In this document: piece by piece, positions 14,507 to 61,524 of the stretch
How the letters are laid out: every line of letters starts with the position of its first letter
Numbering within the stretch: the stretch's first letter is position 1
Source of the DNA: Flexilinea sp.
GTDB lineage: Bacteria > Chloroflexota > Anaerolineae > Anaerolineales > Anaerolineaceae
Reading direction: 5' to 3'
Length of the DNA: 64,000 nucleotides
NCBI GenBank assembly: GCA_026645735.1
Contig: JAPKMT010000009.1
Coordinates: 2,662 to 66,661 of the forward strand
The notes under the pieces: generated by a model
Databases searched by the model: none
What the model was told of the DNA's origin: nothing
The model's input: the letters and a program-made list of their open reading frames with translations, nothing else
Translations under genes and position numbers: made by a program

Positions 14507-14629
14507 CAGTAATTTAAAATTCGGAAAGGCTTTTATAAAAAGAGGGAAAGTTTGTTATGGATGTGTTTTTCCTGAGAGGTTAAAAACACATCCATAACAA
14601 ATAATCTTCTCAATTTTCGAAGGATTCGC
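14507..14629 (+). mobile_element. 123-bp MITE copy
   Basis: CAGTAATT left end, perfect 20-bp arms 14551-14570/14582-14601, flanks CTGAATAAC/CTGCATTTC match 6/9. Confidence 0.75.
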
Positions 14630-14741
14630 CTGCATTTCGAATTGCTCATTACTAACCGATATGTGGATCGCTGAAATGACGAATTTCAATAAAGTCATGA
14701 ATTCTTTAAACGACAGTAGAATGGCTACCATCAGATTTTCA

Positions 14742-14774
14742 GAAAAGGGGAGGCTGTATAGCCTCCCCTTTTTC
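14742..14774 (-). terminator. Terminator/stem-loop after solute-binding protein gene
   Basis: GAAAAGGGGAGGCT-GTAT-AGCCTCCCCTTTT hairpin. Confidence 0.8.
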
Positions 14775-14804
14775 AATCCTGATAAAGCGGAATGATCCGT
14801 TTTT

Positions 14805-16070
14805 TTATTTTACAGGTGGATACCATTTATCCAATGCGTCCTGGACATATTTGGCGGCATCAGCCGGGGTCATCGTTCCATTGATGACATTTGCAGAAGT
14901 ATTCCATAAATCGGTATCCATACCCGGTTCACCACGACCAATGATGGACGCAGAAATTCGGATGCTGGATCCGCAATCTTTTCTCCAGGAAAGGAATTCC
15001 TGAGCTACCGGATTATCTACTGAATACTCGATATTTGCCAGCGGGAAGAAACCAACCATATTGTTCGCATACAATGAGGCAAATTCAGCCGAGGCAACCC
15101 AATCCAGGAATATTCTGGCTGCCTCCGGGTATTTGGTGGCAGAATTCATGCCAATACCAATATCGGTATGGTCGCTGATAAAGCATGCATCATCTGCTTT
15201 GTCCATCGGAACCCGGAAAGCACCCATTTCGAACTCGCCGGCGATCAGCGGTTCAAAAACTGAAATTTCCCAGGAACCAGTGGGATAGATTGCAGCCTGA
15301 CCCATGGTAAATAACTGCTGTGCGTCTGAATACTGAACAGCCTGATAACCATCGGGCAGATATGGAGCCCATTTGGCCAGTTCTTCAAAGGTCTTAACAA
15401 AAGGTTCATCTATGAATTTCGCAGTTCCATTGATGATGCCGAGACGGCCTTCTTCACCTTTATAGTTCTGGACACCGATGTTATACCAGCCCATCGTTGC
15501 TGCTTCCCATAAATCATGTGTTCCCATGGCCAGCGGAATGTATTCACCATCCGCTTTGATGGCATCTAATAATGCGAAGAACTCATCCTTGGTTACCGGG
15601 ACTTTCCAGCCCTTTTCCTCAAAAGCGGTCTTGTTATACATAAAACCATGAATCACGGAAGCCATCGGGACACAATAAGTTGTGGTTCCATCATCCGTAG
15701 TCCAGGCAACTTTCGCTGAATCACCGAAGGATGCCATTCCAGGCAGATCATTCAACGGTGCAAGAAAACCTTTTTCAAATAAAGCCAGAGAGGGATCGAA
15801 TGGACGGCAGGTAATGATGTCGCCCGCTGTACCACCTTCCAGTTTTGTGTTCAATTGGCCGTTATAATCTTCCTGTTTGGTCGGCTGGAAGATCACTTCA
15901 ATTTCGGGATGAACTGCTTTAAATGCAGGTAAAATTTTCTCATTCCAAATCGTGATATCATCCTGACGCCAGCTTTCAATAATCAGTTTTGCACCCGCTT
16001 CCTGAGCAGCAACAGGGACAACCAGAAGCATCAGCATAACCAATGCGACAAAAATAAAAAACTTCTTCAT
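14805..16070 (-). CDS. Sugar ABC transporter solute-binding protein
   Basis: Signal peptide, family-1 SBP features (GQAAIYPTGSWEI), upstream of two permeases. Confidence 0.9.
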   Translation of the reverse strand: MKKFFIFVALVMLMLLVVPVAAQEAGAKLIIESWRQDDITIWNEKILPAFKAVHPEIEVIFQPTKQEDYNGQLNTKLEGGTAGDIITCRPFDPSLALFEKGFLAPLNDLPGMASFGDSAKVAWTTDDGTTTYCVPMASVIHGFMYNKTAFEEKGWKVPVTKDEFFALLDAIKADGEYIPLAMGTHDLWEAATMGWYNIGVQNYKGEEGRLGIINGTAKFIDEPFVKTFEELAKWAPYLPDGYQAVQYSDAQQLFTMGQAAIYPTGSWEISVFEPLIAGEFEMGAFRVPMDKADDACFISDHTDIGIGMNSATKYPEAARIFLDWVASAEFASLYANNMVGFFPLANIEYSVDNPVAQEFLSWRKDCGSSIRISASIIGRGEPGMDTDLWNTSANVINGTMTPADAAKYVQDALDKWYPPVK

Positions 16071-16360
16071 TTTATCTCCTAAATTGTTTCCACAATGATT
16101 AGTACCCCGATAAAACGGGTTTTTTAAGAAAGACTATTTTAATTCTAATCCGCAAAACCAATAGAGAGAAATAAAATCAATCACGAATTCGATTATGACA
16201 AAAGTCATATCTGCTATGAATTATTTTAAATTTTGTAAGATGATTCAATTCAATTGGTAAGTATAAGAAATTCATTATTAAGAAAAAAGACATTTTTCCA
16301 GTAATTTTCCTGTAAGGGGTTTTCCTGGTTTGTTTGTACCCTGCTTTTCCCAAAATTTGT

Positions 16361-16397
16361 AAAAAAAAAGAGGCGGATAAGGATTCCGCCCCTGTTT
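16361..16397 (-). terminator. Intrinsic terminator after pfkA
   Basis: GGGGCGGAAT...ATCCGCCTC followed by T-run on - strand. Confidence 0.75.
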
Positions 16398-17392
16398 TAT
16401 CGAGAAAGGATATTTGAAATCTTTAAGTATTCTTCAGGGAATCCGCGATGTTTTCCCACCAATTCCGGGATTGGAAGCGGCACAATATCCCGACCTTGCA
16501 GCGCTGTCATCACATTAATTTTTCCGGACGTCAAAAATTCAATTGCTTTAAAACCCATCCGTGATGCAATTAACCGATCAAAAGCGGTGGGTGTTCCTCC
16601 TCGTTGAATATAACTTAAATTCGTTCCACGTGCTTTAAACCCTAAATCCATGGCGTCCAATTGTACAGTCAGTTCATCCATTGGGATTGGGAATCCTTCG
16701 GCTACAACAATAATACAATGCCGTCTGCCGCGTTTATAAGAATTGGCAATCGTCTGTGCAATTTCCTCCACAGTGATGTCCGGGTTTTCTGGAATCAATG
16801 CCATTTCAGCCCCTGAAATCAGAGCCGATTCAACAGCCAGAAATCCGCTCTCTCTCCCCATGGTCTGGACCAGAAATGCACGGCTGTGTGATGCTGCCGT
16901 ATCCCTGATTTTATCAATCGCTTCCATGATGGTGTTCAATGCGGTATCCACTCCGATACATGTATCGGTTCCATAAACATCATTATCGATTGTCCCTGGA
17001 ATCCCAACAACTGGGAAACCTTGCGTTGCGATCGATTGAGCTCCTGCCATCGTACCATCTCCGCCAATCACAATCAGGCCATCAATCCCCTCGTGATATA
17101 GTTGACGGACTGCCTCTCGCTGCCCATGCGGTGTTGTCATCTCTGCACAGCGGGCAGTACGTAAAAAAGTTCCCCCGCGGCTGAGAATATTGCTGACATC
17201 CCGTCTTCCTAATGGTACAATATCGCCGTTAATCAATCCCTGATATCCATCCTGGATACCATACATTTTTAGTCCGGCAACAATCCCTGCCCGTACAACA
17301 GCACGAACACCGGCATTCATTCCTGGTGCATCACCACCGGATGTCAATACCGCGACTGATCGAATAGGCGTATCCAGTTGTACAGATTCCAT
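16397..17392 (-). CDS. pfkA: ATP-dependent 6-phosphofructokinase
   Basis: TSGGDAPGMN, GGDGT, PGTIDND (Gly at the positions typical of ATP-type), MGR, QRGG. Confidence 0.95.
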   Translation of the reverse strand: MESVQLDTPIRSVAVLTSGGDAPGMNAGVRAVVRAGIVAGLKMYGIQDGYQGLINGDIVPLGRRDVSNILSRGGTFLRTARCAEMTTPHGQREAVRQLYHEGIDGLIVIGGDGTMAGAQSIATQGFPVVGIPGTIDNDVYGTDTCIGVDTALNTIMEAIDKIRDTAASHSRAFLVQTMGRESGFLAVESALISGAEMALIPENPDITVEEIAQTIANSYKRGRRHCIIVVAEGFPIPMDELTVQLDAMDLGFKARGTNLSYIQRGGTPTAFDRLIASRMGFKAIEFLTSGKINVMTALQGRDIVPLPIPELVGKHRGFPEEYLKISNILSR

Positions 17393-17461
17393 AGCTCATT
17401 CCCTTTCATTACCGCAACCCAAAAGAATCGACAAATTATTAAATTATATTCAATTTTATAT

Positions 17462-17582
17462 CAGTATTTCGAAATTATGGGAGTTTTTTTGCAGGACTTT
17501 TTTGTTTGCACAAAACAAAAAATTGAAGATTTGCAATTTTCCTCGATTATCTTGATAGTTCAGCGCAAATTTCAAATTGCAG
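17462..17582 (-). mobile_element. Decayed MITE copy
   Basis: CAGTATTTCGAAAT left end, AAATTTCAAATTGCAG right end, residual T-rich/A-rich hairpin; no TSD match. Confidence 0.55.
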
Positions 17583-17623
17583 CAAGGCGAAACGAGGCTG
17601 CAGGATTGATCACATTTCCGAGC

Positions 17624-21646: not shown

Positions 21647-21706
21647 TTTTAAATCCTCCAAAAGATGTCCTTATTTTAACGTATTTTCTCAGTCTTCTTT
21701 AATCCG

Positions 21707-21782
21707 CAGCGATTCCTACAAAAATTGGATTCAATTTTCGTTATCGGATGTGTAATTTCTTTCATCTGCTGTTCGAAATATG
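21707..21782. repeat. 76-bp dispersed repeat, copy 2
   Basis: 70/76 identical to 1311-1386. Confidence 0.9.
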
Positions 21783-21895
21783 AAAAGGATGTCATCATCT
21801 CATATATCTTTGAATTATGACATTTGAAAGAATTTTTCTATGACTTTTATTTATTTACAAGTTGATGAAAATCATTTACACTAAAAAAAGGACAA

Positions 21896-21909
21896 TGCAA
21901 ACGATTGCA
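21896..21909. promoter_or_regulatory. LacI-family operator candidate
   Basis: TGCAAACGATTGCA fits TGNAANCGNTTNCA, 62 bp upstream of LacI gene. Confidence 0.7.
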
Positions 21910-23046: not shown

Positions 23047-24102
23047 ATGTCGAAGAAATTGTTTGTTTTATCGATTGTGCTCGTTCTTGCGATGGCAATA
23101 ACGGGTGTTGTCTCAGCAGCGGATTCTTTCAAAATCGGCGTTGTAACACCGGATGCTGATCATGGATTTACAGGCGAAAGTGTCGCACATGCACGCGCTG
23201 AACTTGAAAAATTATCGAAGGAACTTGGATTTGAATACAAATTCGAGGTCGGCGGCGAAGCAGCAAAACAGATTGCAGCTCTTGAAACCATTTTGGAATG
23301 GGGTCCGGATTGTATCGTCTTATGGCCGCTCGAAGGAGAACAATTAAAGAATGCAGCCACCACGATTATGGAAGCCGGCGTGAAACTGATCATCTATGAT
23401 CGTTTAATTGATGGATTCAAACCGACTGCAGAAATCATGGGTGACAACGAGACCATTGGCAAATGGATGGGCGAGTACTTGCTGAAATATTTTGCTGAAC
23501 AATTAAAAGCAGGCGAAACCATCACTTATCTGCGATTCATCGGCGACAGCTCAACTGTATCCATTCAGCGCTCCAAAGGTATGGATGATGTCATTGCAGC
23601 ATCGGAATATGCCGCTCAATTCAAACAGGTTCAGGCGAACTATCAAACCGACTGGTCCAATGCCAAAGCCCAGGAACAAATGGAAAACTGGCTGACCACA
23701 GCAGACGCCAAAGAAATTGAAGATCTGGATCTGATCGTCACGCATGATGATGAAGTGGTTGACGGTATTGTCGTTGCTTTGAACAACTATTTTGGCAGCG
23801 ATCCGGCAGCGAAACTGAACATCAAATTGATGACCGGTGTTGGCGGAAGACGTGAAACCCTGGCGACCTTTGACAAACCGGTTGCAAACGGGATTGAGCT
23901 CGATACCTACTTCTTCAGCCCATCCTTTATCCGCGAAGCCATCCGTCTGGGTGTGGCTGCTGCACAAGGACAACAGTATGCCGGAGAGGATATCAATGGA
24001 CAGCTTTTCCTGATTCCTTCCATTGAAATCGACAAAAACACAGTCGAGAAATTCCGCGCCAGCAAAGAATTTGAAGAGCGCTACAGTATTTCAATGAACT
24101 AA
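23047..24102 (+). CDS. Monosaccharide ABC solute-binding protein (RbsB-like)
   Basis: Signal peptide, IIYDR/GDN motifs, operon context. Confidence 0.85.
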   Translation: MSKKLFVLSIVLVLAMAITGVVSAADSFKIGVVTPDADHGFTGESVAHARAELEKLSKELGFEYKFEVGGEAAKQIAALETILEWGPDCIVLWPLEGEQLKNAATTIMEAGVKLIIYDRLIDGFKPTAEIMGDNETIGKWMGEYLLKYFAEQLKAGETITYLRFIGDSSTVSIQRSKGMDDVIAASEYAAQFKQVQANYQTDWSNAKAQEQMENWLTTADAKEIEDLDLIVTHDDEVVDGIVVALNNYFGSDPAAKLNIKLMTGVGGRRETLATFDKPVANGIELDTYFFSPSFIREAIRLGVAAAQGQQYAGEDINGQLFLIPSIEIDKNTVEKFRASKEFEERYSISMN

Positions 24103-24128: not shown

Positions 24129-24158
24129 AAGCCGTCCGGCAAGAAACCGGACGGCTTT
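24129..24158 (+). terminator. Stem-loop after solute-binding protein gene
   Basis: AAGCCGTCCGG-CAAGAAA-CCGGACGGCTT. Confidence 0.75.
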
Positions 24159-24253: not shown

Positions 24254-24376
24254 CTTTTTATTCGCAAAACTGTTTCTATTTCGAATAAAGAAAGAAAATC
24301 TGTTGTTCTTATGGTTTTGCGCGAAGCGCAAAACCATAAGAACAACAATGAATTCTTTTCATACTTCGAATTACTG
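24254..24376 (+). mobile_element. 123-bp MITE copy (left end decayed)
   Basis: Perfect 22-bp arms 24301-24322/24326-24347 with GAA loop; right end CATACTTCGAATTACTG; TSD not recognisable. Confidence 0.8.
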
Positions 24377-26938: not shown

Positions 26939-27061
26939 CAGCAATTCGATATGTCGAGCAGATTATTTGTTGTTGTGCTGTTTATACACAAAATGTGAAA
27001 CGGCACAACAACTTTTTTTTCTCGATTGATTTGAAAAACTGGTCTGAATTTCTGATTTGCG
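26939..27061 (-). mobile_element. 123-bp MITE copy with decayed hairpin
   Basis: CAGCAATTCGAT left end; flanks CAGGAGACA/CAGGAGGTA match 7/9. Confidence 0.75.
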
Positions 27062-36833: not shown

Positions 36834-36955
36834 CAGCAATTGGAAAATGCGAAAAAGTATATGTTGTTGTGTTGTTTTTGCGCGTAGCGCAAAAACAACA
36901 CAACAACAAGTTTTCTCGATCGATTCGAAAGGTTGGTTCATATTTCGAATTACTG
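36834..36955 (-). mobile_element. 122-bp MITE copy
   Basis: Perfect 22-bp arms with GTA loop; TSD GCGAAATAT/GTGAAATAT (8/9). Confidence 0.9.
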
Positions 36956-42002: not shown

Positions 42003-45000
42003 TCAATGTTTTTTCAATCCCGCTTTGACGGTTTGCTGATCAAACTGGTCTTCCACGCCATCCCAGTCTGCGGGAATGCTGCCGGCGAGCAGGGACACTG
42101 CCAGCGTTTCCGTCTGGATGTATTCCGCATTGTCTTGGATCGCTTCCGCCAGCAGCGGACTCGCTTCATAGACAACGGCGATGCGATCGGAAATTTCCAG
42201 TCCGGCCGTCTTGCGCAAATCCTGAATACGGCGTACAAATTCGCGTGCCAGTCCTTCCTTGATTAACTCCGGTGTCAGTGTCGTTTCCAGCGCAGCGATG
42301 CTGGATCCGCTGGTTGCCACCACAAAACCGGCATGCGCATTGGCGCGAACTTCCACCTCTTCCGGAAGAATTTCATAACTTTCACCATCCATTGTTACGG
42401 TTACGGATTTTCCTTCCAATAACGCTTTACCGGCTTCCATCGGCTCTAACGATAAGATCGCTTTTCGCAGTGCCGGGAATAATTTGCCGTATTTCTGACC
42501 AAGTTGTTTCGGCTGCGGATTGAGAGTGAAGTCCATTGCTTCGGATGCTGCATCCAGCGGTCGTACTTTTTTGACATTCAGCTCTTCTTCCAATATGTCG
42601 GCATACTTCGCGATAATCGGCCGGTCTTCCGCCAGACCGACAGAAAACGCACATTCCGCCAATGGCTGGCGAACTTTCAAGTTTTCTTTGTTGCGTGCGG
42701 CATGACCCAGGGACGCCAGATCAACGACCAGATTCATCTCATGATTCAGTTGTTCATCAATCAGCGATTCATCAAAGACCGGCCAGTCCGCTATATGCAC
42801 CGATTCCACAGCATTTGGATCGATGGAACAGACCAGGTTTTGGTATAGCGCATCTGCCAGGAAAGGCATGGCCGGAGCAATCAGTTTTGCCACAGTCACC
42901 AGCGCGGTATACAGAACCTGATAGGCTGCATTTTTATCGCCATCGCCTTCGCTCTTCCAGAAACGCCTGCGGGAACGGCGCAAATACCAGTTCGACAACT
43001 GATCCACAAATGCCTGAATCGGACGGGTTGCGGCATTGACGTCGTATTCCTCATACGCTTTGGTGATGTTTCTGACCAGTGCATTCAATGCGGATAAAAG
43101 CCAGCGGTCCAGATCACTGTACTCGACCTTCTGCTCTTTATTGGGAGTCCAACCGTCCAGATTGGCATACATCACAAAAAATGAATAGGTGTTCCAGAGC
43201 TGCAGCGTAAAACTGCGCAGTACTTCATTGACCAGGTTGGATGAGAATCGGCGTTCCTGACCGGCCGGGCTGGAAGTAAACAGATACCAGCGCATCGCAT
43301 CGGCGCCATTGTCCTTGATCACATCCCAGGGCGAAACCACATTGCCGATGTGTTTGGACATCTTGTGCCCTTTTTCATCCAGAACCAATCCAAGACAAAT
43401 CACGTTTTTAAAACATTCCTGATTCATCAGAAGCGTACTGACCGCGTGCAGTGAATAAAACCAGCCGCGCGTCTGGTCAATCGCTTCACAGATATAATCC
43501 GCAGGATATTGTTCTTTAAATTCTTTTTCGTTCTTGATCGGGTATCCCCATTGGGCGTAGGGCATGGCTCCCGAATCAAACCAGACGTCAATCAATTCCG
43601 GCACACGATGCATCGTTCCGCCGCATTGTTCACAGCGCCAGGTAACTTCGTCCACATAAGGCCGATGCAATTCCAGATCGGAATAATCTTTTCCGGTTTT
43701 TTGTGACAGCGCTTCCCGGCTGCCGATACATTCCTGATGACCGCAGTCATCACAAATCCAGACCGGCAGCGGTGTTCCCCAATAACGGTTACGGCCTAAT
43801 GCCCAGTCGATATTATTCTCCAGCCAATTTCCAAAGCGGCCGTGTTTAATATGACCGGGATACCAGTTGATACGTTCATTCAGTTCCACCAACCTGTCCT
43901 TAAACTGACTGGTACGGATATACCAGGTGGGACGTGCCACATACAGCAGCGGCGTGCTGCAGCGCCAGCAGAAAGGATAGGTATGTTTGATTTTGCCATG
44001 TTTCAACATGCGGTCGCGGGAAACCAGTTCTTTGATGATCAGCGGATCCGCATCCTTGACAAAAAGTCCAGCCCATGGCGTGACTTCTGGTATAAATTTG
44101 CCTGCGCCGTCCACTGTCATCAGCAGCGGGAAATCTTCCCGTTTTCCAACTTCATTGTCTTCTGCACCGAACGATGGAGCAATATGGACCAGACCGGTTC
44201 CGTCTTCAGTCGTCACATAATCCGCCAGGACAATGCGATGTGCCGGTTTTTCAAGCGGCAGAAAACGATACAACGGTTCGTAACGCCATCCCTTCAACGC
44301 GCTGCCTTGATAAGACTCAAGAATTTTTACATCCTCGCCTGGCAGAACAACCGGAACCAGTGTCTCCGCCATGATCAATTTTTCAGAGGAACCATCTTCT
44401 TTGGTTCGTTCAATTTTTACATAGGTGACATCCGGATGCGCAGCGACACCGACATTAGCCGGAAGTGTCCACGGCGTCGTCGTCCATACCAGAAGGTTCG
44501 TATCCGGTTGATCGATCAACTGTAATCTGAAATAAATCGATGGATCCTCAGCTTCCTGATACCCCTGAGCAACTTCATGATCGGCAAGTGGTGTCCCGCA
44601 GCGCGGGCAATAAGGCACCACTTTAAATCCCTGGTATAACAAATTGCGGTCAAAAAAGTTTTTGAGGATACTCCACTCCGATTCAATATACTCATCCTTA
44701 TAGGTCACATAAGCCGTACTCAGGTCCACCCAATAGGCAACCCGTTCCGTCATTCTTTCCCATTCCTGGATATTTGTAAAAGCGGATTCTTTGCAGAGTT
44801 TGTTAAATTTATCAATCCCATAATCTTCAATTTGCTGTTTGTTGGTAAAACCCAGTTTCTTTTCGACTTCAATTTCCACCGGAAGACCATGTGTGTCCCA
44901 CCCGCCGCGCCGGCTGATATGACAGCCTTGCATGGTGCGATAACGGAGGATCACATCCTTGAAAGAACGGGAAAGGACATGATGGACACCCGGTTTTCCG

Positions 45001-45152
45001 TTAGCAGTCGGAGGACCTTCGAAAAAGATAAATTCTTTCTTCCCCGCCCGATTGTCCGTTGATTTTTGAAAAATATCCTTCTCTTTCCAATAATTGAGGA
45101 TACCTTCTTCCATTTCATTCACATTGAGTTTTGCCGATACTGGCTTGAACAT
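42003..45152 (-). CDS. ileS: Isoleucine--tRNA ligase, type 2
   Basis: EGPPTANG.PGVHH, GWDTHGLPVE, WTTTPWTLP, RYWGTPLP, KMSKH; RBS before ATG 45152. Confidence 0.97.
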   Translation of the reverse strand: MFKPVSAKLNVNEMEEGILNYWKEKDIFQKSTDNRAGKKEFIFFEGPPTANGKPGVHHVLSRSFKDVILRYRTMQGCHISRRGGWDTHGLPVEIEVEKKLGFTNKQQIEDYGIDKFNKLCKESAFTNIQEWERMTERVAYWVDLSTAYVTYKDEYIESEWSILKNFFDRNLLYQGFKVVPYCPRCGTPLADHEVAQGYQEAEDPSIYFRLQLIDQPDTNLLVWTTTPWTLPANVGVAAHPDVTYVKIERTKEDGSSEKLIMAETLVPVVLPGEDVKILESYQGSALKGWRYEPLYRFLPLEKPAHRIVLADYVTTEDGTGLVHIAPSFGAEDNEVGKREDFPLLMTVDGAGKFIPEVTPWAGLFVKDADPLIIKELVSRDRMLKHGKIKHTYPFCWRCSTPLLYVARPTWYIRTSQFKDRLVELNERINWYPGHIKHGRFGNWLENNIDWALGRNRYWGTPLPVWICDDCGHQECIGSREALSQKTGKDYSDLELHRPYVDEVTWRCEQCGGTMHRVPELIDVWFDSGAMPYAQWGYPIKNEKEFKEQYPADYICEAIDQTRGWFYSLHAVSTLLMNQECFKNVICLGLVLDEKGHKMSKHIGNVVSPWDVIKDNGADAMRWYLFTSSPAGQERRFSSNLVNEVLRSFTLQLWNTYSFFVMYANLDGWTPNKEQKVEYSDLDRWLLSALNALVRNITKAYEEYDVNAATRPIQAFVDQLSNWYLRRSRRRFWKSEGDGDKNAAYQVLYTALVTVAKLIAPAMPFLADALYQNLVCSIDPNAVESVHIADWPVFDESLIDEQLNHEMNLVVDLASLGHAARNKENLKVRQPLAECAFSVGLAEDRPIIAKYADILEEELNVKKVRPLDAASEAMDFTLNPQPKQLGQKYGKLFPALRKAILSLEPMEAGKALLEGKSVTVTMDGESYEILPEEVEVRANAHAGFVVATSGSSIAALETTLTPELIKEGLAREFVRRIQDLRKTAGLEISDRIAVVYEASPLLAEAIQDNAEYIQTETLAVSLLAGSIPADWDGVEDQFDQQTVKAGLKKH

Positions 45153-45186
45153 GTTGTTCCTCCGAAAAAACGAATTTCGTGTACTT

Positions 45187-45437
45187 AAAATAAATAACCG
45201 TCCCCATAAGGGACGGACAGATTCCGCGGTACCACCCTTGTTTTCATCATTAAGAAAATGATGAACGCTTTCATCCTGATAACGGTGGAATTTTGCCGTC
45301 TCACTTACTTGTATGAAGTTAATCATACGTTCAGATCAAAGCTCCGAAAGGATTTTCTCTCTGCACATCTCTGCCCGGCTCTCACCATTCCGGGTTCGCT
45401 GTAGATGAAATCACAAAGATACTCGTTTTCATCAACG
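45187..45437 (-). ncRNA. T-box riboswitch (Ile specifier) upstream of ileS
   Basis: AGCGA/GGTGAGAGCC stem I boxes, ATC specifier candidate at 45336-45334, AGTA and CCGTTA boxes, AAGGGTGGTACCGCGG T-box (45239-45224), terminator CCGTCCC/GGGACGG plus T-rich tail. Confidence 0.92.
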
Positions 45438-45490
45438 CCAGATTATTGGCATATTTAACCATATTTTTAACAATTGGTCAAATCAGATAC

Positions 45491-45613
45491 AAGCGATTCT
45501 TAGTATGGAAAAAAATAATTGTTGTTGTGGTGTTTTTGTGCGAAGCGCAAAAACACCACAACAACATATTTTCTCTTGAAATTCGAAAAGCATGGCCTTA
45601 TTTCGGATTGATA
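45491..45613 (-). mobile_element. 123-bp MITE copy
   Basis: 21/22-bp arms with GAA loop; TSD ATCAGATAC/ATCAGATGC (8/9). Confidence 0.9.
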
Positions 45614-54313: not shown

Positions 54314-54618
54314 TTTTTCCCTCTTTAGTATATTTGATGAATGATACGATTTATTGAAAATTCTGGAATAAATCATAGCTTTATATTTTGTATTGATATA
54401 AACTAGTATAACAAAAAGGTATTACTGTTTTTTCATTGAGTTGAATATCTATAGGAAAATGATTATAACAAATTAAAACTATTCAATTTCAGAATCTGGT
54501 ATATTTTTATTAATTTTATTGGTTTATCCATTTCGAGATAACCGAACATGGAAAAATGATAACAAAGACGAATAATACAGCTATTTTTTCTGTTTTTCCA
54601 GGATTTTTTAATAAATAA

Positions 54619-54741
54619 CAGTAATTCGAAATTTGGAAAAACCTTTTGAGAAAAAAGAGAAAATTAGTTGTTATGTTGTTTTTGCGCAGAGCGCAAAAAC
54701 AACATAACAATAAGTAATCTCTCTCATATTTCGAATTGCTG
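54619..54741 (+). mobile_element. 123-bp MITE copy (best preserved)
   Basis: TIRs CAGTAATTCGAAATTTG / CATATTTCGAATTGCTG; perfect TSD AATAAATAA; perfect 20-bp arms with AGA loop. Confidence 0.95.
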
Positions 54742-54856
54742 AATAAATAATGAATCCAGTCGAAAAATTGTTATGATCATCCTTTTTACGCTATGGATCC
54801 GGGATGATCCAGACAGGGTTCTGTATAAAAATATATTGAAGGATTATAGGTTTTAA

Positions 54857-56383: not shown

Positions 56384-56401
56384 AGGTCAAGGAAAGAAAA
56401 G

Positions 56402-56914
56402 ATGGAAACACTTGAAGCAATCCGAACTCGACGCAGCATCCGATCCTATACTTCGGAACCATTAAAAGACGCTGACCTCCAAAAAATCATTGAAGCGGCT
56501 GTTTCCGCTCCCAGCGGCGGTAACAGTCAAAGCTGGTTGTTCTTCAGCGTGTGCGAACCGAAACGTATCGCCGGAATGCGCGCAATTTGTCCCGGGATCA
56601 TCGGAATCCCTTCCGGAATTATCATATTATGTCTCGATTTCCGTGGACAGAAAAAGGAAGTGCTTCCAATCATAAAGTATTTGGATATTGGAGCCGCAAT
56701 GCAGAATATACTACTGGCTGCACATGATCTTGGCTTGGGTGGCTGTGCCATCGGTTCCTTTCATGTGGAAGGCGTAAAAGAATTTCTAAATATACCTGAA
56801 CATGTAGAGCCAATTCTGTTGACCGTTTTGGGCAAACCAAAAAGTCTTCCTTCCGCTCCAAAGAAAAAGCCTTTACAAGAAATCTATTTTCAGGAAAGTT
56901 ATAAAGAAAAATAA
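56402..56914 (+). CDS. Nitroreductase family protein
   Basis: RRSIRSY, APSGGNSQSW, AAMQNILLAAHDLGLGGC. Confidence 0.92.
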   Translation: METLEAIRTRRSIRSYTSEPLKDADLQKIIEAAVSAPSGGNSQSWLFFSVCEPKRIAGMRAICPGIIGIPSGIIILCLDFRGQKKEVLPIIKYLDIGAAMQNILLAAHDLGLGGCAIGSFHVEGVKEFLNIPEHVEPILLTVLGKPKSLPSAPKKKPLQEIYFQESYKEK

Positions 56915-56915
56915 A

Positions 56916-57203
56916 ATGGAATCGAAAGAATTGAAAAACGAATTGTTATTGCTGGTTTCTTTCATGATTACAAGCGCGCGCGGACTCTATGATGAGCCCG
57001 AAAATTATGGGACTTTTCGGTTAATCGATGCGGCTGGACGATTATTGGCCATCATGGAATCAGCAGGAATGTCTGATGTTTTTATCAGCGCACTCAGACA
57101 GCAAGTTGATGAAGAACGGGAATCCTCGATGGATGATGATGCCCAAAAAATGAACCTGGACAGGATGGTGTTAAAAATAGCCAGAGAACTGCAGAATCGT
57201 TGA
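56916..57203 (+). CDS. DUF6092-like small protein
   Basis: SARGLYDEPENYGTFRLIDAA pattern; family name from memory. Confidence 0.6.
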   Translation: MESKELKNELLLLVSFMITSARGLYDEPENYGTFRLIDAAGRLLAIMESAGMSDVFISALRQQVDEERESSMDDDAQKMNLDRMVLKIARELQNR

Positions 57204-57286
57204 TGGATCAAATCGAAGGGAAAATGAATCAGGGTCCTTCGATCACCATCCAAAAATAAATTGGATGATAAAAAAATGGAGAAGAT

Positions 57287-58429
57287 ATGTCAAAAACAAT
57301 ACTGAAAACAAAGCAAGATTGTGTCGATTTTCTTACTGGATTAAAACTGCTCGGAACAGGAGGAGGCGGTTCGATAACGACTGGAATGGAATTGCTCACA
57401 AAAGCACTTGATGAAGGATTGACGCTTTCATGGATCGATGCCGCAGAATTACCAGAAGACACGTTCACTTGTACTGCGTTCAGCTCCGGATCAATCTCTG
57501 CCGGTCGTCCGGAAAGTGAATCGGATATTACTGAATTAGGGAAAAAATTGGGAATCGAGAATAAATTTGGTTTGCGGGCGGCTGAAATGGCGGTGAAGGA
57601 GTTGGAGAAGTACTCCGGTGTCAAAGTAGGTGCTTTGGTTCCTGTAGAGTTAGGTGCTGCCAATGCACCAGCTCCAATGGTAATTGCAGCCCGTCTGGGA
57701 ATGAGTCTGATCGACGGTGATTACAGCGGGAGAGCAGTTCCACAGGAAATGCAGACGACCTATTTTCTGAAAGATTACAGCATTACGCCGGCAGTAGTGA
57801 CAGACTGGTGGGGGGATATCGTTGTCATCAAAGAAGGCTCGGCGGCCATGGTTGAAAGGTTAGGAAAAATGATGGCCATCGCCAGCTATGGCGCTGTATA
57901 TTTTGCATCGGTCCTCTTATCGGCCAAAGATACAAGAGAAACAATTGTTCCCGGCACTTTATCATTGAGCTATGAACTCGGAAAAGCCGTCCACAAAGCG
58001 GTTAAGTCCGCACAGAACCCTGTAACAAAAATTGTTGAACAACTGAATGGATGGAAATTATTCTCAGGAGTTGTTACTGGCAAAGAATGGGAGGATAAAG
58101 AGGGTGCCATGGCGGGAACAACCCACATCCGGGGAACAGGTGTTGATGAAGGTCACACGATGGATATCTGGTTCCTCAACGAAAACCACGTGGCATGGCT
58201 GGACGGGAAACCCTATGTTTTCAGCCCGGATATTATCATAAACGTCAATCCGAATACTGGTGAAGGATATTCCAATACGGAACTGAAAGAGGGTGATCCG
58301 GTCGCAGTCGTTGGCTGCAAAATCAATCCGGTTTTCCGTTCTGAAAAAGCAATTTCTTACTTTGGACCGCGATTTTGGGGCTTTGATTTTGACTACAAGC
58401 CGATAGAAGAAATGATGGCTAGGCGTTAA
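57287..58429 (+). CDS. DUF917 family protein (copy 2)
   Basis: LGTGGGGS, ELGAAN, DGDYSGRAVP, WFLNENH, PDII. Confidence 0.88.
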   Translation: MSKTILKTKQDCVDFLTGLKLLGTGGGGSITTGMELLTKALDEGLTLSWIDAAELPEDTFTCTAFSSGSISAGRPESESDITELGKKLGIENKFGLRAAEMAVKELEKYSGVKVGALVPVELGAANAPAPMVIAARLGMSLIDGDYSGRAVPQEMQTTYFLKDYSITPAVVTDWWGDIVVIKEGSAAMVERLGKMMAIASYGAVYFASVLLSAKDTRETIVPGTLSLSYELGKAVHKAVKSAQNPVTKIVEQLNGWKLFSGVVTGKEWEDKEGAMAGTTHIRGTGVDEGHTMDIWFLNENHVAWLDGKPYVFSPDIIINVNPNTGEGYSNTELKEGDPVAVVGCKINPVFRSEKAISYFGPRFWGFDFDYKPIEEMMARR

Positions 58430-58467
58430 ATAACACTGAATCAAGCACGATCAACGATACTTAAAAC

Positions 58468-58515
58468 AGAGAATTGGTTTTTTGGGAAATATTCCAACGG
58501 CCAATTCTCTTTTTT
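58468..58515 (+). terminator. Terminator after DUF917 copy 2
   Basis: AGAGAATTGG...CCAATTCTCT-TTTTT. Confidence 0.7.
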
Positions 58516-58570
58516 ATATCCAGTTTCAAGCATTTAGATGCATATCGGGACACGCACGAACATTTGCTGC

Positions 58571-58610
58571 TTGACAACGCAATGAAACTATTATACTATA
58601 TATAATAGTA
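58571..58610 (+). promoter_or_regulatory. Sigma70 promoter with overlapping PadR-type palindrome
   Basis: TTGACA-17 bp-TACTAT; TACTAT-ATATA-ATAGTA inverted repeat covers the -10 box. Confidence 0.75.
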
Positions 58611-58716
58611 TTTTACGATTAGTACTGAACTAACTTTTCTTACTCCCGATCAACAATAAAATCGAAAATACTCGAATGAAAACAAGAAAATATCGATTAG
58701 GAAAGGAGGTTGATTC

Positions 58717-59043
58717 ATGAATATTCAATACAAAAAAGGGGTTCTGGAACTTTGCGTTTTAGCCATTTTATATCGCCATGACTGTTATGGATATGACATA
58801 TCAGAATTTATTTCAAAACGGATCGATATCTCAGATGGAACGGTCTATCCCATTTTGCGAAAATTGAAGAGTGATGGAATGGTAACAACTTATTTATCGG
58901 AAGACAGCGGTGGTCCACCCAGAAAATATTACACGCTTACAGATCTCGGGGAAAAAGAATTTTTACAGTCAAAGGAAGAATGGAGCTCTTTTATCAGAGT
59001 CGTCGAAGAAATACTTACGGAGGGTTCGCATGAAAAAAATTGA
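58717..59043 (+). CDS. PadR family transcriptional regulator
   Basis: KKGVLELCVL, YGYDI, GTVYPILRKL, PPRKYY. Confidence 0.95.
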   Translation: MNIQYKKGVLELCVLAILYRHDCYGYDISEFISKRIDISDGTVYPILRKLKSDGMVTTYLSEDSGGPPRKYYTLTDLGEKEFLQSKEEWSSFIRVVEEILTEGSHEKN

Positions 59044-59737
59044 TTATTTGAAAACACTGCAAAAAGAACTGAACAATAATCATGTTGCAGGAATTGATGA
59101 AATTTTGGTGGAATATGACGAGCATTTTAACTACAAAATTGCTGATGGTTACAGCGAAGAAGAAATCGCAGCGAAATTAGGAAAACCGGAACAGATTGCT
59201 GCACAATTTGCTGCTATGGATACGCCCAGTTCATACCGCAGGGGAAATAAGATTCTGGCAGCGCTTGGATTCGGATTTCTGGATCTATTCATCGGCATTT
59301 TTTTTATTCTCGCATATGTCTGGGTTATTGGTATGGGCGTTTTTTCAATAACAGCGATTCTAACAGGATTCAGTTTGGGATTAAATTTCAACCCAGGCCA
59401 TCTCGTCCCCTTTATGCCGTGGCAGAGTGCAGTCTTATTTGGAATATCGATTTTATTTTTGGGTTTTTTAGCAGCGCTTGGAACTATTTATCTATACTTC
59501 TACATCCGACAGCTGGGAAAGGCCTTTGTGCAGTGGCAGAAAAACACTTTCTCGGGAAATATGTATCCACCACTTTCAACAAATCCGCTCTTCAGCTCCA
59601 AAGCCAGACGATTTCTGAGAAGTGCAGCCCAGATTTCGCTCCTGGTTTTTGGAATAGCTTTAATTGCAGCCTATATTTTTTCAGCGATTCATGCGGGGAA
59701 TCTCGAATTCTGGCATGTATGGCACTGGTTTGTTTAG
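59030..59737 (+). CDS. DUF1700 membrane protein
   Basis: YL..L...L, EYDEHF, SEEEIAAKLGKPEQIA N-terminal motif plus TM helices; PadR-coupled. Confidence 0.85.
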   Translation: MKKIDYLKTLQKELNNNHVAGIDEILVEYDEHFNYKIADGYSEEEIAAKLGKPEQIAAQFAAMDTPSSYRRGNKILAALGFGFLDLFIGIFFILAYVWVIGMGVFSITAILTGFSLGLNFNPGHLVPFMPWQSAVLFGISILFLGFLAALGTIYLYFYIRQLGKAFVQWQKNTFSGNMYPPLSTNPLFSSKARRFLRSAAQISLLVFGIALIAAYIFSAIHAGNLEFWHVWHWFV

Positions 59738-59752
59738 AAAGGATATGATTCC

Positions 59753-60601
59753 ATGAAGACAATCATCGTAACGGGTGCGACTTCAGGTATCGGATTTGCC
59801 GTCTGCAAATCCCTCCTTCAGGCGCAATATCGTGTCATCGGAATTGGCCATACATTCGATCATTGTGAAAAAGCAAAAACTTTACTGAGAACTGAAATAC
59901 CCGATCAGGAAGTTGAATTCTTTTACGGAGATTTAATGCAGCAGCGTGAAGTTCATCGAATTGCAGATCAGTTGTCAGAACACATCGAAAAGACCTCGGA
60001 TTCCTGCCTTTTTGGCCTGATTCATAACGTTGGCTGTGTTCGCAGCTGGTACAGCACTACGGAAGACGGGTATGAGCAACAGTTTGCATTAAATCACCTG
60101 GCAGGATTTTTATTAACCCATCGATTGCTAAAGTACCTGAAAAACGAATCCGGCAGAATCCTTTTAACCAGCAGTCAATCGCACCAGTGGATGAAAATCC
60201 ATTGGAGTGACATCATGTTTCAAAAAGGATATCATCCGCTGCTGGCATACAAACAATCAAAACTATGCAATCTGCTTTTCGCTTATGCGTTGAATACGCG
60301 GTATCCCTCGAGAGAAATCCAGGCATTTTGTATCGATCCTGGACTCTTTCGAACGGATATCGGCAATAAGAAGACAGGGAAACTGGTCAGTTTTGTGTGG
60401 AATCTGAGAAAAGCCGGTGGCGTTCTTCCCGAAATTCCTGCTGAAACGTATCGATTTTTGTGCGATCAGAAAAAAAATCCGGATGGATTGTATTACAAAA
60501 ATTGCCGAAAAATGCCTTTCAGCAGGCAAGTTAATCGACAAAATGCGGAGCAGCTCTTTGCCTTAAGTGAACAATTCTGCAATATTCAATTTGGAGTCTG
60601 A
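59753..60601 (+). CDS. SDR family oxidoreductase
   Basis: TGATSGIG, YKQSK catalytic YxxxK, DPG. Confidence 0.9.
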   Translation: MKTIIVTGATSGIGFAVCKSLLQAQYRVIGIGHTFDHCEKAKTLLRTEIPDQEVEFFYGDLMQQREVHRIADQLSEHIEKTSDSCLFGLIHNVGCVRSWYSTTEDGYEQQFALNHLAGFLLTHRLLKYLKNESGRILLTSSQSHQWMKIHWSDIMFQKGYHPLLAYKQSKLCNLLFAYALNTRYPSREIQAFCIDPGLFRTDIGNKKTGKLVSFVWNLRKAGGVLPEIPAETYRFLCDQKKNPDGLYYKNCRKMPFSRQVNRQNAEQLFALSEQFCNIQFGV

Positions 60602-60603
60602 AG

Positions 60604-61413
60604 ATGAAAGTATTCATTACCGGCGCAACCGGCGGGCTGGGACGCGCATTTTCCATCGAGTGTGCGAAACGCGGATTTGATCTGTTTCTGACGGATTTGA
60701 ATCAATACAAGCTGAACACACTCAAAAAAGGCCTACAGTCACAGTTCCCGCTAGTTGAAATAGAGGTCTGTGCAAGTGATCTGACCAATGAAGAAGATGT
60801 GAAAAGGTTACTGAAATTTGCAGACACGAAACAAATGAAGTTTGACATGCTGCTGAATGTAGCCGGTGTAGATTTCGAAGGCGCATTTCTGGACTGGGAT
60901 TCTTCTCACATCTTGAAAATCGTTCAATTGAACATTGAGGCGACACTGCGAATAACGCACGAAATTCTGAATCGAAGGAAGGATCAAGAAAAATTCTACC
61001 TGGTGTTCGTGGCAAGTTTGGCTTCGCTGTATCCGATGCCGCTGAAAGCCACTTATGCGGCATCAAAACGATTTTTGTATGATTTTTCAATTGCTCTGGG
61101 AGAAGAGCTGAAAACAAAGCAAGTCTCTGTTCTTTCTCTTTGTCCCGGAGGATTGCCCACCACAGAAGAAGCGATTCGCGGCATTCAGGTTCAAGGATTT
61201 TGGGGAGAAATGACAACCAACCGGCTGGAAAGTGTGGCAGCCATGACAATTTCCAAAGTCCTTCAAGGAAAGAAGATTTATATTCCGGGTGCAACTAATA
61301 AAATATTCAGTGTGTTGGGCAAATTTATTCCAAATACACTCATCGCAAAACTGCTGTATAACAGATGGAGCAGGGCACAGAGCCATTGGTTGAGCATAAA
61401 GCCGCAATTTTAA
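60604..61413 (+). CDS. SDR family oxidoreductase
   Basis: TGATGGLG, LLNVAG, YAASK; last codons lie inside a MITE. Confidence 0.9.
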   Translation: MKVFITGATGGLGRAFSIECAKRGFDLFLTDLNQYKLNTLKKGLQSQFPLVEIEVCASDLTNEEDVKRLLKFADTKQMKFDMLLNVAGVDFEGAFLDWDSSHILKIVQLNIEATLRITHEILNRRKDQEKFYLVFVASLASLYPMPLKATYAASKRFLYDFSIALGEELKTKQVSVLSLCPGGLPTTEEAIRGIQVQGFWGEMTTNRLESVAAMTISKVLQGKKIYIPGATNKIFSVLGKFIPNTLIAKLLYNRWSRAQSHWLSIKPQF

Positions 61414-61524
61414 ATATGGAAAAGAATAATTGTTATTGTGATGTAGTTGCGCGAAGCGCAACTACATCACAATAACAAAATCTCGTTTTTTTCTCAAAAG
61501 GCTATTCCAAATTTCGAATTACTG
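61402..61524 (-). mobile_element. 123-bp MITE copy inserted in SDR 3' end
   Basis: Perfect 23-bp arms with GAA loop; TSD AGCATAAAG/AGCGTAAAG (8/9). Confidence 0.92.

What the first reader, a model, noticed from the sequence alone, without database searches (positions are those of the whole stretch)
14551..61478. MITE central hairpin: arms vary between copies but stay self-complementary, and the loop appears inverted in some copies
Left arms: TGTTGTTCTTATGGTTTTGCGC (24301, 22/22 paired), TGTTGTTGTGTTGTTTTTGCGC (36862, 22/22), TGTTGTTGTGGTGTTTTTGTGC (45520, 21/22, one G-T), TTGTTATGTTGTTTTTGCGC (54668, 20/20), TTGTTATTGTGATGTAGTTGCGC (61430, 23/23), TTTGTTATGGATGTGTTTTT (14551, 20/20). Against the 36862 copy I count about 10 substitutions in four other copies, each mirrored in the opposite arm, while TIRs and TSDs of the same copies have drifted. 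In element orientation the loop is GAA at 24323 but TTC at 45542 and 61453, its exact reverse complement. GCGAAGC/GCGTAGC are the known extra-stable GNA mini-hairpins. This points to an active symmetry-restoring process (template switching, cruciform resolution or arm-to-arm copying during mobilisation, as in REPIN-like elements) or to strong selection on an RNA/ssDNA structure. It gives each copy its own hairpin sequence.
Basis: partly seen in the sequence, partly recalled or inferred. Interest (0 to 1): 0.9.

Follow-up and report, generated by a model that had tools for sequence, protein, structure and literature searches.

The report
Self-correcting, loop-flipping palindrome in a MITE
A 123-base mobile repeat, present about 200 times in this Flexilinea-like (Chloroflexota) genome, has a perfect 22-bp central hairpin whose arms are repeatedly recopied from each other and whose 3-base tip flips between near-identical strains; this is a clear natural case of a known DNA-copying error (template switching), not a new kind of system.

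Summary

- **Element:** about 217 TIR-defined copies of a 123-bp MITE, with 9-bp target-site duplications (TSDs). A matching transposase-bearing insertion sequence (IS) exists in the sister species but was not found in this assembly.
- **Stem maintenance:** stem pairs 5-20 are mismatched 3-10 times less often than the TSDs of the same copies (1-2.9% against 10%). The four GCGC pairs next to the loop decay at the TSD rate (13%).
- **Type of change:** within groups of copies with similar flanks, deviations at pairs 5-20 are 40 two-sided (all Watson-Crick, 26 transversion-type, 25 singletons) against 8 one-sided. At pairs 1-4 they are 0 against 26. G·T wobbles are nearly absent.
- **Loop inversion:** at 5 of 8 loci compared with conspecific metagenome contigs (97.9-99.9% identical), the loop is the exact reverse complement. 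One inversion carries a stem mismatch with it. An unrelated terminator loop is also inverted.
- **Reading:** this fits replication template switching within the palindrome (arm homogenisation plus spacer inversion). Transposition-linked copying, RNA-structure selection and purely clonal subfamilies fit poorly.
- **Caveats:** the sister genome's older copies are much more decayed.

This scan has noted the same phenomenon before on other DNA (haloarchaeal, CPR, anammox and endosymbiont repeats).

The parts
24254..24376 (.). MITE copy (long flank on the left). The left TIR is degenerate, so the left boundary is approximate.
   Evidence: Sequence; right TIR hit at 24363-24376.
24301..24347 (.). 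Perfect 22-bp palindrome, loop GAA at 24323-24325. The loop is TTC in two conspecific contigs.
   Evidence: In one search, L057 and L058 carry TTC and also the linked SNP 24942 T>A. L055 carries GAA and lacks that SNP.
36834..36955 (.). MITE copy (short flank on the left) with consensus arms.
   Evidence: TIR hits; sequence.
36862..36908 (.). Perfect 22-bp palindrome, loop GTA at 36884-36886. The loop is TAC in conspecific contigs.
   Evidence: L011 (99.4% identical) and L065 (99.0%) differ inside the element only by GTA>TAC.
45491..45613 (.). MITE copy with degenerate ends (boundaries approximate). Hairpin 45520-45566 has one T.G at pair 3 (GTGC/GCGC), loop GAA.
   Evidence: The mismatch lies in the loop-proximal zone that is not maintained.
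54619..54741 (.). MITE copy; hairpin 54668-54710 (20 bp, loop AGA). Loop unchanged in the one strain compared.
   Evidence: L051 shows no difference inside the element.
61402..61524 (.). MITE copy (left end degenerate, boundary approximate). Hairpin 61430-61478 (23 bp), loop GAA at 61453-61455, which is TTC in three conspecific contigs.
   Evidence: L051, L052 and L053 all carry TTC. The right half is orthologous to a copy in G016.
14507..14647 (.). Divergent MITE copy; 20-bp arms at 14551-14570 and 14582-14601 around an 11-nt centre.
24129..24157 (+). Non-MITE terminator-like hairpin (11-bp stem, 7-nt loop CAAGAAA) after the gene ending at 24102. Its loop is exactly inverted in one strain.
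   Evidence: Sequence. L060 has TTTCTTG at 24140-24146. Listed as a perfect hairpin.
26939..27030 (.). Decayed MITE copy with an imperfect, enlarged centre; no change between strains.
62349..62408 (.). Hairpin-less MITE derivative (both ends present, palindrome missing).
   Evidence: An exact loss of the palindrome is seen between two F. flocculi-like contigs, L012 and L013.

Best explanation
**What it is.** The repeat is a non-autonomous DDE-type transposon (MITE, 123 bp, roughly 17-bp TIRs, 9-bp TSD). The copies in this genome come from an old burst of insertions.

**How it works.** The central 47-bp perfect palindrome is kept self-complementary after insertion by a DNA-level copying error, not by transposition or by selection on an RNA. 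During replication the nascent strand repeatedly switches template within the palindrome.
- A fold-back is nucleated on the GCGC-RRA-GCGC mini-hairpin. Extension along the strand's own first arm rewrites pairs from about 5 outwards. A mutation in one arm is therefore either erased or mirrored.
- A switch to the opposite strand and back across the centre reverse-complements the loop, together with any mismatch inside the copied tract.
- The 4 pairs that serve as primer are never corrected. They decay at about the neutral rate.
- Once the clamp or the register is lost, a copy stops being corrected and decays, or the palindrome is deleted.

**Shown:** maintenance after insertion, the two-sided changes, the gradient along the stem, and heritable loop inversions between strains.

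**Inferred:** that the process is replication template switching, and that the mini-hairpin acts as the primer.
For: 1. **Maintenance after insertion.**
 - The 9-bp TSD is real: 75% identity in register against 27-31% off register.
 - TSD mismatch counts fit one Poisson distribution with mean about 0.9, so there is no excess of young copies.
 - In 125 copies with a recognisable TSD, mismatch is 10.0% per TSD position, 0.95% per stem pair at pairs 5-20, and 12.8% at pairs 1-4.
 - With every TIR-defined copy counted and loops of 2-6 nt allowed (150 copies), the figures are 10.4% against 2.9%. Here 79% of copies are perfect at 16/16 pairs, against 17% expected if pairs decayed like TSD positions.
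2. **Two-sided changes.** In tight flank-defined clusters the flanks deviate from the cluster consensus at 6.9% per site.
 - Pairs 5-20 show 40 two-sided against 8 one-sided deviations. Pairs 1-4 show 0 against 26 (Fisher p = 3e-13).
 - The two-sided rate of 3.8% per pair is near the 5-7% expected if a mismatch is resolved either way at random.
 - All 40 remain Watson-Crick. They represent 32 distinct events, of which 25 are singletons.
3. **Not an RNA-type pattern.** Only 5 of 2896 cells at pairs 5-20 are G.T. Of the 40 double changes, 26 are transversion-type, such as T-A to A-T, which has no wobble intermediate.
4. **Gradient along the stem.** Mismatch is about 13% at pairs 1-4, about 3% at pairs 5-7, about 0.5% at pairs 8-20, and over 10% from pair 21. 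A strand ending just after the second GCGC folds into the 4-bp mini-hairpin.
5. **Direct inversions.** Contigs from other samples, 97.9-99.9% identical to this genome, show the loop exactly reverse-complemented:
 - 36884-6 GTA>TAC (L011, L065).
 - 61453-5 GAA>TTC (L051, L052, L053).
 - 24323-5 GAA>TTC (L057, L058, but not L055).
 - C25:30223-5 GAA>TTC (L082).
 - C48:19219-27 CGCTCCGCA>TGCGGAGCG (L076), which carries the C.A mismatch over as T.G.
 - No flip was seen at three other loci.
 - Loop state follows the linked SNP haplotypes across independent samples and assemblers.
 - Within the 8 elements there are 5 inversions against 4 point differences. The flip rate per hairpin is therefore of order 100 times the per-site substitution rate.
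6. **Not specific to the MITE.** A terminator with an 11-bp stem has its 7-nt loop inverted in L060.
7. **No transposition needed.** The only partner IS found is in G016 and has no homologue in this assembly. No Y1/RAYT gene was found.
8. **The mechanism is established.** Template switching homogenises inverted-repeat arms and inverts spacers (PMC8604942). It can fix stem pairing and invert loops (PMC8794818).
Against: - **The sister genome is much less well maintained.** In a 460-kb sample of G016, an ungapped count gives core mismatch (16% per pair) about equal to TSD mismatch (17% per position) in the 18 copies with a recognisable TSD. The distribution is bimodal and several 'mismatches' are register shifts. 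I could not redo the count with gaps. Maintenance is therefore not perpetual, and part of the contrast in this genome could reflect its particular history.
- **The clamp link is weak.** In this genome, the association between clamp damage and core damage is only marginal (Spearman p = 0.047). In G016 it is stronger (rho 0.51, p = 0.0015), but copy age confounds it.
- **No two-sided stem change was caught between strains.** About 0.1 per locus was expected, so this is uninformative rather than contrary.
- **Much of the covariation is inherited.** The 334 non-majority Watson-Crick cells fall into only 39 types, so subfamily descent accounts for a large share.
- **Mechanism not separated from alternatives.** Nothing here distinguishes replication template switching from other arm-to-arm copying, such as heteroduplex repair in an extruded hairpin.
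- **Data limits.** All genomes except G016 are metagenome assemblies, and no reads could be examined.
Confidence: 0.7

Rival explanations
1. Short-homology recombination or cruciform processing. The two 22-bp arms recombine with each other (RecA-dependent or independent), or the extruded hairpin's mismatches are repaired as heteroduplex. This would invert the loop and convert the arms without any replication slippage.
For: It produces the same end products: the inversions, and the arm homogenisation. The arm length of 22 bp is near the minimum for homologous recombination (general knowledge).
Against: - A terminator with only an 11-bp stem also flips. That stem is too short for efficient homologous recombination.
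- Reciprocal recombination alone does not correct mismatches. The C48 inversion carried its mismatch along.
- The sharp boundary at pairs 4/5 is a natural consequence of fold-back priming. Heteroduplex repair does not predict it.
Confidence: 0.12
2. Selection on structure. Each copy's hairpin (as an RNA terminator or stabiliser, or as an ssDNA signal) is under purifying selection, and the double changes are ordinary compensatory substitutions.
For: - T-rich tracts follow the hairpin on both sides, so it could act as a bidirectional terminator (sequences).
- Mismatches next to a loop or at a stem end cost the least stability, which also predicts a gradient.
Against: - The two-sided rate (3.8% per pair) is about half the neutral per-site rate (6.9%). 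That is far too fast for two-step compensation against a selected intermediate.
- G.T wobbles are almost absent, at 5 of 2896 cells.
- 26 of 40 double changes are transversion-type.
- Copies lie in tandem, divergent and convergent gene contexts alike.
- No Rfam family matches the element.
- Loop inversion is not explained at all.
Confidence: 0.06
3. Clonal subfamilies only. A few master copies with different perfect hairpins were amplified. The covariation and both loop orientations are inherited, and the copies are simply young.
For: - Clear subfamilies exist, for example the CTTATGG arm type with at least 17 copies.
- Most two-sided cells belong to shared types: 334 cells in 39 types.
- Flanks also fall into families.
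Against: - The copies are not young: TSDs are 10% mismatched and fit one Poisson distribution.
- Pairs 1-4 and the flanks have decayed while pairs 5-20 have not.
- There are 25 singleton two-sided changes inside tight clusters.
- Every flank cluster holds both loop orientations.
- The orientation differs between strains at the same locus.
Confidence: 0.05
4. Artefact. The loop flips come from de Bruijn assembly of a perfect palindrome, or from polymerase template switching during library PCR.
For: - K-mers that lie wholly inside a perfect palindrome cannot tell the two loop orientations apart (reasoning).
- PCR polymerases do invert hairpin loops in vitro (PMC5218489).
Against: - Orientation can be resolved for k of 27 or more. 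The contigs come from k = 127 or 141 MEGAHIT-named assemblies, SPAdes-style NODE contigs and JGI assemblies.
- Loop state agrees among independent samples that share SNP haplotypes: three of three at 61453, two of two at 36884, and it follows SNP 24942 at 24323.
- Reported PCR inversion frequencies are at most 1.5% of reads, and at most 0.006% for Q5 and Kapa HiFi (PMC5218489). That is too low to change a consensus.
- The isolate genome G016 also shows both orientations.
Confidence: 0.03

Closest known systems
Quasipalindrome / inverted-repeat template-switch mutation (Ripley model; four-point model of Loytynoja and Goldman, PMC5453318; Monttinen and Loytynoja 2022, PMC8794818; yeast inverted repeats, PMC8604942)
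   Same: - Arms of an imperfect inverted repeat are homogenised.
- The spacer is reverse-complemented.
- Several bases change in one event.
- Double changes appear without a wobble intermediate.
   Different: - Here the substrate is about 200 paralogous copies of one mobile palindrome in a single bacterial genome. This allows rates to be set against TSD decay.
- Flips are seen at over half of the loci among strains less than 2% apart.
- There is a sharply defined uncorrected 4-bp zone next to the loop.
- Replication dependence was not tested.
REPINs / REP elements with RAYT transposases (Bertels and Rainey 2011, PMC3116915)
   Same: - High-copy intergenic palindromic repeats that form a hairpin.
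[quoted passage not shown]
   Different: - This element has TIRs and a 9-bp TSD.
- Its partner is a DDE-type IS.
- No Y1/RAYT gene was found in three genomes.
- It is not a pair of REP sequences.
Classic bacterial MITEs (for example Correia/CREE of Neisseria; named from general knowledge)
   Same: - Size of about 100-150 bp.
- TIRs and TSDs.
- Hundreds of intergenic copies.
- Derived from the ends of an IS.
   Different: - The centre is a long perfect palindrome unrelated to the partner IS.
- The TSD is 9 bp.
- The family is restricted to three of 25 same-genus genomes searched.
Minute hairpin-loop inversions in chloroplast non-coding DNA (Kelchner and Wendel 1996; Kim and Lee 2005; cited from memory, not read here)
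   Same: Small loops flanked by short inverted repeats flip recurrently and homoplasiously between close relatives.
   Different: - Different genome type.
- No mobile element is involved.
- Arm homogenisation was not the focus of that work.

Membership tests
MITE (non-autonomous DDE transposon) | Terminal inverted repeats | tested here: met
   The ends CAGYRATTCGAAAT...ATTTCGAATYRCTG recur in 217 paired elements.
MITE (non-autonomous DDE transposon) | Target-site duplication of fixed length | tested here: met
   The 9-bp direct repeat shows 75% identity in register against 27-31% off register. It is perfect in 48 of 164 copies.
MITE (non-autonomous DDE transposon) | Small, non-coding, high copy number | tested here: met
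   Modal length is 123 bp, with about 217 copies in 3.35 Mb. A 123-bp element of this kind has no room for a gene.
MITE (non-autonomous DDE transposon) | An autonomous element with the same ends | tested here: met
   L050:2510-4140 (G016 contig C1) is 1631 bp with the same TIRs, a perfect 9-bp TSD (GCATTCTGT) and a 446-aa ORF. It is found in the sister species only, not in this assembly.
ISAs1-like IS family (for the partner IS) | Transposase with DDE_Tnp_1_assoc plus DDE_Tnp_1 domains | tested here: inconclusive
   Both Pfam domains hit, but below their cut-offs (20.6 of 32.3 bits and 19.2 of 23 bits). NCBIfam gives no match. That ISAs1 elements have an 8-10 bp TSD and CAG ends is recalled from memory only.
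REPIN/RAYT system | A Y1 (RAYT) transposase gene in the genome | tested here: not met
   PF01797 has no match in G000, G016 or G005, while it is found in 6 of the 14 control genomes. G000 is 92% complete.
REPIN/RAYT system | No TIRs or TSD; two inverted REP sequences | tested here: not met
   TIRs and a 9-bp TSD are present.
Template-switch (quasipalindrome) mutation signature | Arms homogenised: mismatches far below neutral expectation and changes mirrored | tested here: met
Template-switch (quasipalindrome) mutation signature | Exact reverse-complement replacement of the spacer at one locus | tested here: met
   Five MITE loci and one terminator differ in this way between conspecific contigs.
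Template-switch (quasipalindrome) mutation signature | Dependence on replication (strand bias, suppression by 3' exonucleases) | not testable with these tools
   This needs reporter assays or read-level data.
Invertase-driven DNA switch (inverton) | Conserved inverted-repeat recognition sequence | tested here: not met
   Arm sequences differ between flipping copies, and an unrelated terminator flips too. The presence of an invertase gene was not searched for.
Known structured RNA family (Rfam) | Match to a curated covariance model | tested here: not met
   The only Rfam hit in the window is a T-box at 45206-45444. Nothing matches the repeats.

The most novel reading that the evidence does not exclude
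The GCGC-RRA-GCGC tip may not be incidental. It could be an evolved self-repair module: a very stable mini-hairpin that primes fold-back synthesis and so erases arm mutations. MITE lineages carrying it would then outlast ordinary repeats through element-level selection for a self-correcting palindrome. The very fast loop flipping might additionally switch a property of the neighbouring genes, such as terminator or promoter polarity.
Probability: 0.1. Interest if true: 0.75.

Novelty: new member of a known kind. Interest (0 to 1): 0.5.

Why it matters
How long hairpin stems stay perfectly paired while their sequence drifts is an old puzzle. Template switching has been proposed as the answer, mostly from rRNA, yeast and human comparisons.

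This family offers about 200 replicate palindromes per genome, each with an internal clock (its TSD) and an internal control (the four uncorrected pairs next to the loop).
- The conversion rate can be compared with the point-mutation rate. A mismatch seems to last only about 8-10% of the copies' age.
- The loop flips roughly 100 times faster than a site mutates.

The sister species Flexilinea flocculi TC1 is a cultured isolate that carries the same family and its IS, so the process could be tested experimentally.

Practically, such loops and arms should be masked or coded as single events in strain typing and phylogenetics. Stem covariation in repeats should not be read as proof of a functional RNA.

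Tried and rejected
- **First exact-protein look-up failed**, because my ORF start differed from the called start. The shorter form worked. One further look-up found nothing, and two returned only the source sample's own contigs.
- **Orthologous MITEs between this genome and G016.** Synteny is excellent at 83-90% identity, but almost all insertions differ, so a species-level comparison of the same copy was not possible.
 - The one shared copy, at 61430, is orthologous only in its right half. It borders a 2.9-kb rearrangement.
 - Its four mirrored arm differences could therefore come from recombination with another copy. I did not count them as evidence.
- **Autonomous IS in this genome.** TIR pairs 0.6-4 kb apart with a TSD gave only two chance-like candidates. 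tblastn with the G016 transposase found nothing.
- **RAYT/HUH link.** No match.
- **Clustered differences at C22:46733-46757.** These are not an inversion.
- **Differences between G016 and the contigs L012/L013.** Apart from one palindrome deletion and one decayed copy, the paired differences were in coding sequence.
- **Replicating the statistics in G016.** It is noisy and partly contrary.

Full report
**1. Observation**

They sit in copies of one repeat. Its end motif occurs 22 times in the window against 2.5 expected.

The window's genome is 3.35 Mb in 86 contigs, with 41% G+C. It holds 217 non-overlapping elements with paired ends, and the modal length is 123 bp.

The element is asymmetric. 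About 17 nt separate one TIR from the palindrome, and about 40 nt separate the other TIR from it. Short-plus-short forms of 105 bp also exist.

**2. Organism and distribution**

- The exact consensus hairpin occurs elsewhere only in Flexilinea flocculi TC1 (Anaerolineae). It also occurs at the end of one contig labelled as a Verrucomicrobia MAG.
- Among 24 other same-genus genomes searched, the family is abundant in only two, G016 and G005. G016 is syntenic with the window at 83-90% identity.
- Insertion sites are almost all different between this genome and G016. Most insertions therefore post-date the species split.

**3. What the element is**

- A 9-bp TSD is confirmed: 75% identity in register against 27-31% off register.
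- G016 carries a 1631-bp IS with the same ends, a perfect 9-bp TSD and a 446-aa ORF. The ORF gives sub-threshold DDE_Tnp_1_assoc and DDE_Tnp_1 hits.
- No homologue of that transposase is in this assembly. No Y1/RAYT gene is in any of the three genomes.
- The element is therefore a MITE of a DDE-type IS, not a REPIN.
- Rfam has no match to it.

**4. Stem statistics**

In 181 copies with a 3-nt-register centre, mismatch per pair depends strongly on distance from the loop:

| Stem pairs | Mismatch per pair |
|---|---|
| 1-4 (GCGC) | about 13% |
| 5-7 | about 3% |
| 8-20 | about 0.5% |
| 21 and beyond | over 10% |

- At pairs 5-20, 2861 of 2896 cells are Watson-Crick, against 2310 +/- 11 after shuffling.
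- The sequence still varies. There are 59 arm haplotypes among the 151 copies perfect at pairs 5-20, and 40 of them are unique.

**5.

- TSD mismatch counts (0:48, 1:47, 2:24, 3:6) fit one Poisson distribution with mean about 0.9. The copies are therefore of similar, considerable age, at roughly 5% divergence per site.
- In those copies the TSD is mismatched at 10.0% of positions. Pairs 5-20 are mismatched at 0.95% and pairs 1-4 at 12.8%.
- To remove ascertainment bias, I counted every TIR-defined copy with a recognisable TSD (150 copies). The core figure then rises only to 2.9%. In this set 79% are perfect at 16/16 pairs, against 17% expected.
- The remainder are mostly indel, truncated or hybrid-arm copies, so the distribution is bimodal.

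**6. Are the variants just subfamilies?**

Partly: 334 non-majority paired cells fall into 39 types. Inside tight flank-defined clusters, however, the pattern is different:

| Region | Two-sided deviations | One-sided deviations |
|---|---|---|
| Pairs 5-20 | 40 | 8 |
| Pairs 1-4 | 0 | 26 |

- The flanks in these clusters deviate from the cluster consensus at 6.9% per site. The contrast between the two rows gives Fisher p = 3e-13.
- All 40 two-sided changes keep Watson-Crick pairing. They represent 32 distinct events, of which 25 are singletons and 26 are transversion-type.
- The two-sided rate of 3.8% per pair is close to what unbiased resolution of neutral hits would give (5-7%).
- Comparisons of nearest neighbours by flank agree: 249 two-sided against 63 one-sided at pairs 5-20, and 24 against 126 at pairs 1-4.
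- G.T pairs are 5 of 2896 cells.
- Together these results argue against two-step compensatory evolution under RNA selection. They point instead to one arm being copied from the other.

**7. Loops**

- Relative to the asymmetric flanks, loops come in reverse-complement pairs at near-equal frequencies.
- Every flank cluster holds both orientations.
- Nearly all loops are RRA or its complement TYY.

**8. Direct evidence from strains**

Exact-protein look-ups and one metagenome scan returned contigs from other samples that are 97.9-99.9% identical to this genome. Eight loci with perfect hairpins could be compared.

| Locus | This genome | Other contigs |
|---|---|---|
| 36884-6 | GTA | TAC in L011 and L065 |
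| 61453-5 | GAA | TTC in L051, L052 and L053 |
| 24323-5 | GAA | TTC in L057 and L058, which share SNP 24942; GAA in L055 |
| C25:30223-5 | GAA | TTC in L082; GAA in L081 |
| C48:19219-27 | CGCTCCGCA | TGCGGAGCG in L076 |
| 54668, C22:46822, C9:19773 | - | no flip |

- The C48 event is a 9-nt inversion that moves the C.A mismatch of pair 3 to the other arm as T.G.
- L075 has pair 3 of the C48 copy intact. This is a one-sided difference in the zone that is not maintained.
- Within the eight elements there are 5 inversions against 4 point differences. A hairpin therefore flips roughly 100 times faster than a site mutates.
- A non-MITE terminator (24129-24157, 11-bp stem) has its 7-nt loop inverted in L060. 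The process is thus a property of hairpins in this organism, not of the transposon.
- An artefact is unlikely. Loop state follows SNP haplotype across independent assemblies, and in-vitro inversion rates are at most 1.5% of reads (PMC5218489).

**9. Mechanism**

- The outcomes match template switching at inverted repeats, which is known to homogenise arms and invert spacers (PMC8604942; PMC8794818).
- The uncorrected pairs 1-4 are what fold-back priming predicts. The bases made before the switch come from the normal template.
- A strand ending after the second GCGC folds into the 4-bp mini-hairpin. GCGAAGC-type DNA mini-hairpins are known to be unusually stable (general knowledge).
- From 0.76-0.95% standing one-sided mismatches against about 10% input, a mismatch lasts about 8-10% of the copies' age, or roughly 0.4-0.5% divergence. 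This is the same order as the flip rate, consistent with one process producing both. This estimate is an inference.

**10. Limits**

- In G016 the copies are older and far more decayed. An ungapped count gives core mismatch of about 16% per pair against TSD mismatch of 17% in copies with a recognisable TSD. Clamp damage correlates with core damage (rho 0.51, p = 0.0015), but age confounds that correlation.
- G016 still shows old copies whose TSD is unrecognisable and whose arms are strongly diverged, yet perfectly paired.
- Maintenance therefore delays decay but does not prevent it.
- The palindrome can also be lost outright. L013 lacks exactly the palindrome that L012 and G016 carry. Hairpin-less derivatives occur in the window.

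**11. Comparison and novelty**

- For REPINs it was already noted that compensatory changes across the hairpin are common (PMC3116915).
- No paper in the library mentions MITEs in Flexilinea.
- Earlier notes of this scan describe the same phenomenon in other genomes. I treated those as leads only.
- This is a new, well-quantified member of a known kind: an undescribed MITE family that shows the known template-switch signature.

Noticed in passing
window 24129-24157: A terminator-like hairpin after the gene ending at 24102 has its 7-nt loop CAAGAAA exactly inverted (TTTCTTG) in conspecific contig L060. Loop inversion is therefore not confined to the MITE.
   Followed up: partly
L012:5640-5700 vs L013:120-160 (the orthologous G016 copy lies at about G016:C3:157006-157102): Two F. 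flocculi-like metagenome contigs differ by loss of exactly the central palindrome of a MITE copy. This is a plausible origin of the hairpin-less derivatives such as window 62349-62408.
   Followed up: partly
L050:2510-4140 (G016 contig C1, about 421510-423140): A 1631-bp IS with the MITE's TIRs, a perfect 9-bp TSD (GCATTCTGT) and a 446-aa ORF. The ORF gives weak hits to DDE_Tnp_1_assoc and DDE_Tnp_1 (ISAs1-like). It is the likely autonomous partner and was not found in the window's genome.
   Followed up: partly
G000 C44:19846-19950 and C74:9019-9119: Hybrid copies whose left and right arms come from different subfamilies (CTTATGG-type arm paired with a consensus-type arm). They suggest recombination between copies at the loop, and they have not been homogenised.
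   Followed up: no
window 58533-61464: A 2.9-kb segment carrying PadR, HAAS and two short-chain dehydrogenase genes is present here but absent from G016. Its right boundary falls inside the hairpin of the MITE at 61430, whose right half is orthologous in both species. This looks like a MITE-associated rearrangement.
   Followed up: partly
window 9240-9430; also many G016 intergenic regions (for example opposite window 16266-16397, 28144 and 39559): A second, unrelated repeat family built around GTCATTGCGAGC...TCGCAATGAC motifs. It is more abundant in G016 than in this genome.
   Followed up: no
window 45206-45444 (- strand): A T-box leader (Rfam RF00230, 112 bits) lies upstream of the class I aminoacyl-tRNA synthetase gene at 42003-45326. 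The MITE at 45491-45613 is inserted about 45 bp upstream of it.
   Followed up: no
L006 (DBPU01000094.1, 7781 bp), 7563-7605: A contig labelled Verrucomicrobia bacterium UBA1412 ends in the exact consensus hairpin of this Flexilinea MITE. It may be a mis-binned contig.
   Followed up: no
G000 C22:46733-46757 (L092:44-68): Upstream of the L21 ribosomal protein gene, two conspecific contigs share clustered differences (CGT>TTG and AAGTT>TTACG, 20 nt apart). These are not a simple inversion and remain unexplained.
   Followed up: partly
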